Below, in pieces: positions 5,667 to 46,318 of a DNA stretch of 64,000 nucleotides. The translations under genes and the position numbers were made by a program. Each line of letters begins with the position of its first letter. Position 1 is the stretch's first letter. This stretch comes from the human T2T-CHM13v2.0 reference genome, Homo sapiens. The stretch lies in assembly GCF_009914755.1 (NCBI RefSeq), contig NC_060929.1; one strand, 5' to 3'. The notes beneath the pieces were generated by a model that saw only the letters and a program-made list of their open reading frames with translations, did no database searches and was not told where the DNA came from.

Positions 5667-6188
5667 TGTATCAGCCAGGAACTTAGTTGTGAACAATATA
5701 ATCCACTCTTATTATTTTAAGGAAAAAGGAATTTATTAGGTGGCTTATAGAATTTCTTGCAGGACCAGTAAGCTAGGGTTAGATAATGTGCTGTAGCCGG
5801 AAGAAATAATCAACCACCCAAGGGATATTCTGGTGGAAATCACTGATGCAGTTGCCCATCACTCTGCACCAGTGACACCAGGGACCAGAGAGTGCAAACT
5901 CTGCTAAAGATACCGAGGGGAGGCATGCTTTGGCTACCCCACTTGCAAAGAAAGTTGAGCTCCCTGAACAGATGCAGCCACATGCTACCATGAAGGAAGA
6001 AGAGACCAATGCAAAGCCGGGGCTTCCTCCTTCACTGTAGCATGTGGCTACATCTGCTCAGCAGAACCTAGGCTGTATCCAGAAGCAGGCATCAGGGGAA
6101 TCTCTCTAACTCTCCTATCTCTGCTGTGGAAAAAGGAAAAAGAGACTGGAAGGGATGTTGAAGGAGTCTGTGCATAGAATCTGTTACA
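5667..6188 (-). mobile_element. Old MaLR LTR (MLT1 family)
   Basis: 'tgtatcagccaggaacttagttg...aaaggaatttatt' typical reverse MLT1 end. Confidence 0.65.
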
Positions 6189-19979: not shown

Positions 19980-20478
19980 TGTGGTAGGCTGAAAAACAGA
20001 CCCCCAAAATATATCTCTGCCCCAATCACTGGAATCTGTAAATGTTACTGTGTTACTTTGTATGGAAACAAGACCTTGCCATATAAAATTAAGTTAAGGA
20101 TTTTGAGATGGGGAGAGTTTCCTGGACTGTCAGGGTGGGCCTTAAATGTGATTACATGTATTCTGATAAGAGGGAGGGAGAGGAAAATAAAACACAGACA
20201 GAAGAGAAGAAGCCAAAGCAGCCACGGAGGTAGAGATCAGAGTAATGCCGCACAAACTAAGACATGCCGGTGGCCACCAGAAGCTGGAAGAGGTAAGGAA
20301 GGATTTCTCTCCTTGAGCCTCTGGAGAAGTGCAGCCCTGCTACCACCTTGATTTCAACCCAGTGATGCTCACTGAATTCAGCAATCTGGACTGCAAAACT
20401 GTGAGAGAATAAATTTCTATTGTTTTATACCACCAAGTTTGTGGTAATCTGTTCCAACAGCCACAAGAAATTAATATA
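19980..20478 (+). mobile_element. MLT1C/D MaLR LTR
   Basis: 'tgtggtaggctgaaaaa...attaagttaaggattttgagatggg...ccaccagaagctggaagagg...agaataaatttct'. Confidence 0.9.
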
Positions 20479-20747
20479 CCTCTCAATACCATTTTTGCCT
20501 TTGGGTCCTAGAACATCCAACATTACAATGTACTGTGTGCCTTATTAATGTTCAACAATGTTTTTTCACATCTTTTTGGAAAATAACCTGAAATGCAGTA
20601 GCCAACTTTCTGCCTAAGAAGATCAGGCTGGGTTGGTTTGTTGCCACGTAATATGGAATATCCCCAGTGGGCAGTACTCTTGACAAATTATCTTGAAGGC
20701 AGCTGGATTCTTTTATATCCATACGATTTGTAGTGACTTTGGGGTCC

Positions 20748-21035
20748 TGCCAGTCTTGAACAAGATTATCTAAAAGCAGAGCCTAACACAGGGATTCTTG
20801 TTCAAATAAGTGATTGGGGAATGCTCTCAGGAGTCAGGGGAAAAACTTAGCCAGGTATGGTCTCAATCAGAGACTAACTTCAGTCTGATCCTCCAGAAAG
20901 GCTTTGTACCACAAAGTTAATCCCACCTTGAGTCAAGGGGAAAGCCTTTTTCTACCCACCTTATCACTCAGAGATTGGGAGATTCGCATGGGAGTGGGAT
21001 GGTAAGGTGACAGGGAATCATGGCCTCCCAGGCAA
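20748..21035 (-). mobile_element. LTR33/LTR16-like ERVL LTR fragment
   Basis: 'aagcagagcctaacacagggattcttgttcaa...gaatgctctcaggag'. Confidence 0.5.
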
Positions 21036-21369
21036 AAAAATAGGGACTTCTTATAGGAAATGATTAATAAAAGAAAACCACAAATGCAAAGCATTATATA
21101 AACAATTAATGAATTTAACTAGTATAAGATATTGTCAGGATAAATTTAAATTAATCCTGATGTGTTGGCCAAATGGCAGTCAATGAGTATTGTTTGTCAA
21201 CTCTGATTTGAGCTTGGTTCCCTTAGCCTGTGACATAGAATGGCAGCCTGGAAAATCCCAATCAGGTTGCAAAACCAAACGTGACCTCAGTAGAGTATCA
21301 GTGGAATAATGCTCAACTCAGATAATGCCTTCAAAAGACATTACATAAAGGTGGAGGTGGCCACATGTT

Positions 21370-21519
21370 CTTTGCTGGGTTTATAGACTTCACCTGCCAT
21401 GGAGGGACCCCTCAGTGGTGAGGGTCATGAGCCCCCACAGCGGCTGCTTTGCTGGGACTCCTCCATGGCAGGTGAAGTCTATAAACCCAGCAAAGCAGCT
21501 GCTGTGGGGGTTCGTGACC
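21370..21519. repeat. Two overlapping inverted repeats (36 bp perfect; 34 bp with 3 transitions)
   Basis: 21370-21405 is the exact reverse complement of 21460-21495; 21423-21456 matches the reverse complement of 21486-21519 at 31/34. Confidence 0.97.
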
Positions 21520-23166
21520 ACATTAAAATTCTTATTTGAGTCAAGGATGAGAGACCTGATCCAAACATGGCCTACATGGAGCCAGGCTGTTTTGTTTCTT
21601 CCTTAGGCAGACAGAGTGAAACAGCAAAAAAAACTAAAAAGGTGCAAATTCCACCCTTCATGCGGTAGAAATGTGTGACCTGCAAGGCCTAGATTTTGAT
21701 CATTTAAATCCAACACTTCTGAGCAACTCCTTGAAACTTAGGAAATACCTCATGAATTTTCAAAACATTTCTGAAACATGCTAGACTGCCACATTTGTTG
21801 AAGTCAGCTAGGAGCAAGGGCCAGAGCAGAGGTGGGGACAGTGGAGAAATGAAGCCACTGCCTCAGAGAGGTGAGCCGCACCTGCCCAGTGCCCATGACC
21901 CCAGCACGGAACACCCTCGGCTCTGTTCCTAACCAGTGTTTATTTACCACAGATATCCTTGAATTTCCCTGACTGGTAAGAGATACATGAGAGACAAAGA
22001 GACAGAGAGGGAAAAAGAGAGAGGAGGTCAGAGAATGACCAAAATAACATTGCATTCTTTTTTGTTTAAAGGACATTTAAAAACAAAACATCAAAAAATC
22101 ATTCATTATCATCATTTCATGAATAAAAGCCATTTGAATACCCATAAAAAAAGAAAGCACACAATGCCAGAATAAAGGGTAGTCCTTCAAGATCAATGGA
22201 TTTAGTTTTAGAAAAAACTCACCACATTTGCTTACATTTTCATTTTACCTCACATCAGCACTCTAAGTGTTCTGAGAACCACAGTTTAACAGTTGAGCCC
22301 GTTTAAGCTCACGCCTCCTGTCATTCTCATACAAACTGAAAAGAGCTGGGCTCCTTCTGGCCCAGCTTAAATCAAGAACAAATTAACTACCTGTCCCAAA
22401 TAAAGGACATCCAAAGGTCATGGAAACCTTTAAATCATTCTCAATTTCTAGTTTTTTGAAAACCCTAGCAAATTTCTCATTATCAGTAGGATTGCTAGGG
22501 GCAGTTTCAATAACCTACAAACTAAAGTTTAACTTTTAAAGTAACTGCTTCTGTCATTTAATGCTTTAAAAAATAAAGTTGAAGGCAGAGTTTGTTCAAC
22601 ATTTACTGAGTGCCTAATTATATGTCAGGTAATATGCTACAATAAGGGAATATGTGCATGCATTTTTCCCTGTTTTTCAAATTCAAGTATTATTTACATA
22701 CAATAAAATTTAGCCCTCTTCAGCATACAATTCCAGAAGTTTTGGCAAACACATAAGTTATACAACCATCACCACAATGAAGACACAGAACATTTCCATC
22801 AGCCCCAAAATCCCTCTCACCCCATGTACTCAACTCCTGCCCCTACCTACAGGCCCTGGAAACCACTGATCTGTCCCTATAGTCTTGCCTTTTACAGAAT
22901 ATATAATTATATTCATAATTATTTACATAATAATCTTCCAGAATTCCACATTAGTGTAATCACGCAGTATGTAGCCTTTTGAGTCTGGCTTCTTCCACTC
23001 AGCAGAGTGCATCTAACATTCTTCTGTTGTTGCTCGGATCAATAGTTCCTTCCTTCTTACTGCTGAGTACAGCATGGTTTGTTTATCCACTCCCTGGTTG
23101 AAGCACAGTTGAGTTGTTTCCATTTAGGTAGTAGAGAAAATATAAACAAAGCTGCTATAAATATCC

Positions 23167-45777: not shown

Positions 45778-46114
<337 letters not shown>

Positions 46115-46123
46115 CTACATTAA

Positions 46124-46318
<195 letters not shown>

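What the first reader, a model, noticed from the sequence alone, without database searches (positions are those of the whole stretch)
21361..21523. The inverted arm reads across the head-to-tail junction of a 77-bp unit: circular-template or serial template-switch signature
Seen: CTTTGCTGGG occurs as a direct repeat at 21370-21379 and 21447-21456, bounding a 77-bp unit A-spacer-B. The reverse complement of 21460-21519 is B joined directly to A through that 10-mer, an order absent from the linear left half. CCACAT flanks the whole structure (21361-21366 and 21518-21523) like a TSD. Known: microDNA circles form between short direct repeats, and FoSTeS/MMBIR or Pol theta joining produces serial inverted templated segments. 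Inference: either a small circle was copied back in inverted orientation, or the right half is ancestral and was copied twice by template switches. The different arm divergence (0/36 versus 3/34) hints at two events or at hairpin-driven conversion of arm A.
Basis: partly seen in the sequence, partly recalled or inferred. Interest (0 to 1): 0.7.

Follow-up and report, generated by a model that had tools for sequence, protein, structure and literature searches.

The report
Crossed inverted copies from replication slips
A single-copy 160-base stretch between two human genes holds two overlapping inverted repeats, most likely an old scar left when the copying enzyme briefly switched strands twice; this is a tidy case of a known mutation process, with no good sign of a DNA circle or of a function.

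Summary
No second locus was found in the genome. The circle reading is not needed. Two inverted copies of overlapping pieces of a linear template give the same 'head-to-tail junction' and 10-bp direct repeat in 473 of 500 simulations, and the arm covers only 60 of the 77 circle bases. Copying the right half twice rebuilds the locus with 3 mismatches and nothing left over. Two other local template-switch histories fit almost as well; only primate outgroups can choose. Two of the three arm-B mismatches are CpG decays, one in each copy, and two ages are not significantly better than one (p 0.08-0.11). CCACAT is within chance as a 6-mer (3.5-12%), though its 9-of-10 extension is rarer (0.4-1.7%). 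Verdict: an uncommon, compound product of short-range template switching (four-point model), a known process. No function is evident. Interest is low.

The parts
21370..21405 (+). Arm A, left copy (10-mer X at 21370-21379 plus 26 nt); likely an inverted copy of 21460-21495
   Evidence: 36 of 36 complementary to 21460-21495; no CpG; only these two sites in the genome within 3 mismatches. Direction inferred.
21406..21422 (+). 17-nt spacer S, single copy; likely ancestral sequence between the two copied pieces; holds most of a small hairpin (21409-21414 with 21419-21424)
   Evidence: No partner in the inverted arm; best other ungapped match 13 of 17 in 325 kb; a 6-bp stem occurs in 134 of 21,300 19-nt stretches of the window; -5.3 kcal/mol.
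21423..21456 (+). Arm B, left copy (24 nt plus 10-mer X at 21447-21456); likely an inverted copy of 21486-21519
   Evidence: 31 of 34 complementary; mismatches at 21428, 21431, 21442, the first and last at CpG. Direction inferred.
21457..21459 (+). 3-nt linker between the left and right halves
   Evidence: Read from the sequence.
21460..21519 (+). Right half, 60 nt: partner of arm A (21460-21495) and of arm B (21486-21519), overlapping by 10 nt (21486-21495); likely the ancestral template
   Evidence: rebuild with 3 mismatches. Ancestral status inferred.
21357..21366 (+). Left copy of a 9-of-10 direct match that includes CCACAT; probably chance, not shown to be a target-site duplication
   Evidence: family D8; chance rates.
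21514..21523 (+). Right copy of the 9-of-10 direct match; overlaps the end of arm B

Best explanation
The stretch is two crossing inverted repeats at one locus, likely made when a replicating polymerase twice left its template, copied a short piece just ahead from the opposite strand, and returned (short-range template switching), with the right half as the likely original. Shown: the geometry, single copy number, and that this history rebuilds the sequence. Inferred steps: (1) the ancestor was about 70 bp shorter and ran left flank, spacer S, 3-nt linker, right half; (2) a switch about 56 nt ahead copied 36 nt backwards (arm A) and returned at S; (3) after S, which ends in a small hairpin, a switch about 63 nt ahead copied 34 nt backwards (arm B) and returned at the linker. 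The two templates overlap by 10 nt, so both copies carry that 10-mer: the direct repeat and the 'head-to-tail junction' are by-products. The two steps may be one stalled-fork episode or two events with arm B first; the data do not separate these. The product is likely neutral: two mutually exclusive hairpins in single-stranded DNA, no gene or element annotated. Local template switching of any of the three forms in this report: about 0.87; this form: 0.45.
For: Rebuild from the right half: same length, 3 mismatches, no leftover base; an ordering with arm B's right copy derived fits equally (H2). Signature in 473 of 500 simulated double copies in crossing order, 0 of 500 in nested order. Each step is of the commonest class, 1-4-3-2 / 3-2-1-4, 0.49 of gold-standard great-ape events (PMC7954356 S1 Table), and 34-36 nt lies inside the observed range (median 12, maximum 128). 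It needs no pre-existing repeat. Single locus. One CpG decayed in each copy of arm B, so the structure is old and not an assembly fold-back. A 6-bp stem ends at the S/B junction (134 of 21,300 by chance); PMC7954356 reports a small rise in ancestral structure near switch point 1. Arm A being slightly cleaner is the direction expected if it came second (p 0.08-0.11).
Against: No outgroup sequence was available, so the ancestral state is not observed. It needs four switch junctions, against two or three for the rivals, which also rebuild the locus with 3 mismatches. Both copied pieces are about three times the median length. Two switches at one site lie outside the published four-point model, which does not cover successive rounds (PMC5453318). 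No priming match is visible beyond the arm ends except 3 bases inside arm A, though microhomology would be hidden inside the arms. The 9-of-10 flanking match (0.4-1.7% by chance) is left as coincidence.
Confidence: 0.45

Rival explanations
1. Left half ancestral, with the 10-bp direct repeat already present. The nascent strand folded back and copied arm A, slipped from the first 10-mer to the second, copied arm B, and returned. One episode, three switches, no circle.
For: Rebuilds the locus with 3 mismatches from an ancestor 60 bp shorter, nothing left over (H3). One age fits. The second hairpin has the smaller loop (29 against 54 nt), so the slip is physically plausible. Three bases pair just inside arm A after three mismatches, a possible priming remnant.
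Against: Needs a chance exact 10-bp direct repeat at 77 bp and a slip exactly there. Hairpin A is the more stable one when complete (-53.7 against -40.0 kcal/mol).
Confidence: 0.22
2. One four-point event of type 3-1-4-2: the middle (21423-21495) is an inversion flanked by duplications, the return switch using a 10-bp inverted repeat that was already there, with 17 extra bases at the first junction.
For: This type is described as making two inverted repeats around an inverted spacer (PMC5453318). Only two switches. Rebuilds all but 17 nt, with 3 mismatches (H1). One age fits.
Against: The 17-nt spacer has no source: best match 13 of 17 in 325 kb. The type is rare, 1% to 3%. It needs a pre-existing 10-bp inverted repeat.
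Confidence: 0.2
3. A 77-bp circle formed between the two 10-mers and part of it was copied back, inverted, beside its origin.
For: The arm matches the doubled circle at 57 of 60 across the junction. MicroDNA ends show 2-15 bp direct repeats (PMC5587290). Circle-mediated duplications are described in the human genome (PMC7188851).
Against: Only 60 of 77 bases are present and no base is read twice, so nothing requires a circle. The signature arises from linear templates. 77 bp is under the usual 100-400 bp. The copy sits 3 nt from its source, while PMC7188851 describes reinsertion at an independent site and excludes as false positives cases where one piece flanks the other on both sides, a pattern resembling this one.
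Confidence: 0.04
4. An inserted element (a small palindromic transposon or captured fragment) with CCACAT, or its 10-nt extension, as target-site duplication, later rearranged inside.
For: The 9-of-10 flanking match is uncommon (32-152 of 9,100 window pairs). The locus is richer in G+C than its flanks (56% against 42%).
Against: No second locus by DNA search, by arm A with up to 3 mismatches, by a terminal-repeat-like pattern (0 matches) or in viral contigs. No terminal inverted repeats at the ends: the repeats cross. A shared 6-mer occurs in 320-1,110 of 9,100 pairs. The DNA search can miss old or common repeats, so this is not excluded outright.
Confidence: 0.04

Closest known systems
Short-range template switch mutations, four-point model (PMC5453318; PMC7954356; PMC9435742)
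   Same: Reverse-complement copies of DNA within 100 bp, making new near-perfect inverted repeats in unique sequence; lengths within the reported range (maximum 128 nt). Crossing repeats are the described result of type 3-1-4-2.
   Different: No single four-point event that I tried explains every base (17 nt left); a complete fit needs two events or three switches. Published cases are called from an aligned ancestor, which I lack.
FoSTeS / MMBIR / serial replication slippage (as summarised in the introduction of PMC5453318)
   Same: Successive switch-and-return steps leaving inverted templated segments.
   Different: Those are typically thousands to millions of bases and long-range; here all templates lie within about 65 nt. 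Junction microhomology cannot be seen without the ancestor.
eccDNA-mediated duplication (PMC7188851) and microDNA (PMC5587290)
   Same: Circularly permuted order of two pieces; a short direct repeat at the would-be circle ends.
   Different: The copy is incomplete (60 of 77), adjacent and inverted; the unit is far smaller than the segmental duplications studied and below typical microDNA size.
De novo microRNA hairpins made by template switching (PMC10710096; search listing and supplement search only)
   Same: A switch creates a long, nearly perfect stem in one step.
   Different: No transcript is annotated here (hub table); no Rfam family reaches its curated score, best 37.1 bits against 100.

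Membership tests
Short-range template switch mutation (four-point model) | New segment is a reverse-complement copy of nearby sequence | tested here: met
   36 of 36 and 31 of 34 complementary within 150 bp.
Short-range template switch mutation (four-point model) | Copied length within the known range | tested here: met
   34-73 nt depending on the history; reported median 12, maximum 128; up to 97-180 in unmasked human data.
Short-range template switch mutation (four-point model) | One switch-and-return explains the whole cluster | tested here: not met
   The single 3-1-4-2 history leaves 17 nt. An exhaustive scan of single events timed out; other single types were considered by reasoning only. 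Two such events do explain it.
Short-range template switch mutation (four-point model) | Ancestral allele seen in an aligned genome | not testable with these tools
   No primate genome is held: the genome has no relatives here.
eccDNA-mediated duplication / microDNA reinsertion | Permuted order reading across the circle junction | tested here: met
   57 of 60 against the doubled circle, but not specific: 473 of 500 linear simulations give it.
eccDNA-mediated duplication / microDNA reinsertion | Whole circle present, opened at one point | tested here: not met
   60 of 77 bases; 21406-21422 absent from the arm.
eccDNA-mediated duplication / microDNA reinsertion | Inserted at an independent site; size of 100 bp or more | tested here: not met
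   3 nt from the source; 77 bp against 100-400 bp; definition.
Miniature inverted-repeat transposon | Dispersed copies | tested here: not met
   Only the own locus; 0 matches. The DNA search may miss old families.
Miniature inverted-repeat transposon | Terminal inverted repeats bounded by a target-site duplication | tested here: not met
   The repeats cross instead of closing the ends; CCACAT overlaps arm B and is within chance as a 6-mer.
microRNA precursor | Match to a known family; processed transcript | tested here: inconclusive
   15 Rfam matches at E up to 5, none at its curated score; expression not testable here.

The most novel reading that the evidence does not exclude
A 77-bp circle, smaller than typical microDNA, closed between 10-bp direct repeats in the germ line and served as the template for an inverted copy beside its origin; this would be a fixed fossil of microDNA feeding back into the genome, and a searchable signature for such events.
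Probability: 0.04. Interest if true: 0.6.

Novelty: new member of a known kind. Interest (0 to 1): 0.2.

Why it matters
As a locus it probably does not matter: intergenic, single copy, no annotated element. It is a clear teaching case that a 'circular permutation' signature with a bounding direct repeat can come from two overlapping inverted copies of a linear template, so scans for circle reinsertion need this control. If outgroups show both copies arose on one branch, it would be a resolved example of serial short-range switching, which the published four-point scans do not model. If they show hairpin B alone, it would show one hairpin site being hit twice.

Tried and rejected
1) An older, diverged repeat under the structure. 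21404-21440 resembles 21454-21495 by eye, and a targeted shuffle looked significant (2 of 20,000 global). A fair null removed it: 140-306 of 987 complex 100-nt windows self-align as well. Rejected as evidence. 2) A palindromic transposon whose ends would be that resemblance: 0 matches genome-wide, 6 per strand for the reversed control. 3) Paralogues that would show the ancestral state: the flanks 20520-21369 and 21486-22600 gave one short outside hit each, away from the structure; the 2.2-kb search scored 40 of 616 candidates, all outside hits at the first 90 bases. 4) Viral origin: 0 exact matches to arm A in viral contigs. 5) Tandem repeat: none over the locus at score 30. 6) Known RNA family: none at curated score. 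7) Two ages: not significant. 8) Exhaustive single-event fit: timed out with no output; replaced by forward rebuilds of named histories. 9) A wider genomic background for crossing repeats was not obtained; the background is 325,521 bases, mostly around this locus, too small for a genome-wide rate. 10) Listing in print: not found, see the full report for the limits.

Full report
Observation. The window at 21361-21523 reads: left flank, arm A (21370-21405, beginning with the 10-mer X), a 17-nt spacer S (21406-21422), arm B (21423-21456, ending with X), 3 nt, then a 60-nt right half (21460-21519). The first 36 nt of the right half are the perfect reverse complement of arm A; its last 34 nt complement arm B at 31 of 34; the two partners overlap by the reverse complement of X. 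The repeats therefore cross, and the two hairpins exclude each other (-53.7 and -40.0 kcal/mol as DNA). Folding z is -9.4, 0 of 200 shuffles as good. In 325,521 bases held (window plus 40 loci) there were five other inverted repeats of 20 nt or more and no other crossing pair. The feature is real.

Copy number. DNA searches of the own genome with the whole locus and with 21423-21495 returned only this place. Arm A with up to 3 mismatches matched only its two copies. The flanks are close to unique; a dispersed repeat lies at about 20400-20490, some 900 bp away (40 of 616 candidates scored). The tool warns that old or very common repeats can be missed. No viral contig matched arm A exactly. No Rfam family reached its curated score; the microRNA models that score do so far below it, as any long stem would.

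Is a circle needed? No. If two inverted copies are taken from overlapping parts of one linear template, both carry the overlap, which then appears as a direct repeat, and the template appears to read across a head-to-tail junction. In simulation this signature was recovered in 473 of 500 cases in crossing order and 0 of 500 in nested order. The arm matches the doubled 77-bp circle at 57 of 60 but covers only 60 of 77 bases and never passes its own start. The published signature of circle-mediated duplication is a whole circle, opened once and inserted elsewhere (PMC7188851), and its authors discard cases in which one piece flanks the other on both sides. MicroDNA averages 100-400 bp, with 2-15 bp end repeats (PMC5587290).

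Which history? I rebuilt the locus from four named histories. Right half ancestral, two inverted copies: 3 mismatches, ancestor 70 bp shorter, nothing left over. Two events with arm B's right copy derived: the same fit. Left half ancestral, fold-back with one slip between the 10-mers: 3 mismatches, ancestor 60 bp shorter. One event of type 3-1-4-2: 17 nt unexplained, and S has no source nearby (best 13 of 17). All are local template switching. I favour the double copy because it uses only the commonest event class (0.49 of gold-standard events, against 0.03 for 3-1-4-2; PMC7954356 S1 Table) and needs no repeat to pre-exist. A small hairpin ends at the S/B junction (134 of 21,300 stretches by chance), a possible stall site; this was noticed after the fact and is only suggestive. 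Against it: four junctions, and copied lengths about three times the median of 12 nt. The ranking among the three local forms rests on this reasoning, not on data; only outgroups can settle it.

One event or two? The arm-B mismatches are at 21428, 21431 and 21442. The first and last are CpG decays, one in the left copy and one in the right; arm A has no CpG. Fisher's test gives p 0.11 for 0/36 against 3/34 and 0.43 without CpG sites. A likelihood test with an assumed 6- to 15-fold CpG rate gives p 0.08-0.11 for two ages, and a single-age divergence of about 4%, support interval 1-11%. With recalled genome divergences (chimpanzee about 1.2%, orangutan about 3%, macaque about 6.5%), the structure is likely older than the human-chimpanzee split. 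Decay in both copies also argues against an assembly fold-back artefact.

CCACAT. Two windows 157 bp apart share a 6-mer in 320, 663 or 1,110 of 9,100 pairs for widths of 15, 20 or 25 nt. The match extends to 9 of 10, which occurs in 32, 87 or 152 of 9,100. This is the one result against my reading. But the right copy overlaps arm B, the left stands 3 nt off arm A, and no donor for an insertion exists in the searches above, so I treat it as probable chance (insertion rival 0.04).

A lead that failed. Positions 21404-21440 and 21454-21495 look like old diverged copies. A targeted shuffle supported this; a fair scan of 100-nt windows did not (140-306 of 987 as good), and a pattern for the implied element ends found nothing. 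It is not used.

Print. The four-point model and its event types: PMC5453318, parts 1-3 of 6 read; it states that successive rounds are not modelled. PMC7954356: passages, section 8 part 2, section 10 and S1 Table read; its event list (S2 Data) has no chr5 row beginning 5889, 5890 or 5891. The GRCh38 place, about chr5:58,908,800, is my estimate from the hub's T2T gene ends and recalled GRCh38 gene ends; S1 Data was too large to read. Absence is expected if the event predates the apes compared. PMC9435742: passages and 11 of 22 supplement files searched, no hit. PMC10710096: listing and 3 supplement files searched, no hit, one further file unreadable. PMC7188851: parts 1-2 of 4. PMC5587290: passages. 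Two full-text searches for this locus or this exact arrangement found nothing relevant; some searches were seen as listings. Unread supplements could list the site.

Verdict. A real, single-copy, probably primate-age scar of short-range template switching, compound and uncommon but of a known kind. Local template switching about 0.87 in all (double copy 0.45, fold-back and slip 0.22, single 3-1-4-2 with an insert 0.20); circle 0.04; inserted element 0.04; other 0.05. No function is indicated. Interest 0.2.

Noticed in passing
window 5970-6055: A second inverted repeat in the window: 19-nt arms with one mismatch (13 perfect) around a 48-nt spacer; it looks like a simple template-switch product or part of an old repeat.
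   Followed up: no
L033:9436-9518 (G000:C5, about 59,599,440-59,599,520): A 37-nt inverted repeat with 1 mismatch and a 9-nt spacer, A+T-rich; a likely cruciform-capable palindrome inside the RAB3C span.
   Followed up: partly
window 46016-46050 and 46237-46271: A 35-nt inverted pair, 186 nt apart, the left arm inside a masked repeat; probably neighbouring Alu-type copies in opposite orientation (family recalled, not from a call).
   Followed up: no
window 20400-20490: A dispersed repeat of about 80 bp, 81-89% identical to many sites, not in the hub's list of longest masked stretches; family not identified.
   Followed up: no
window 21280-21292: An 11-of-13 match to 21513-21525, the end of arm B and the next bases (family D3); probably chance.
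   Followed up: no
L035:1340-1425 and L028:2331-2422: Further short inverted repeats (26 nt with 2 mismatches; 21 nt with 2 mismatches) in the background set.
   Followed up: no
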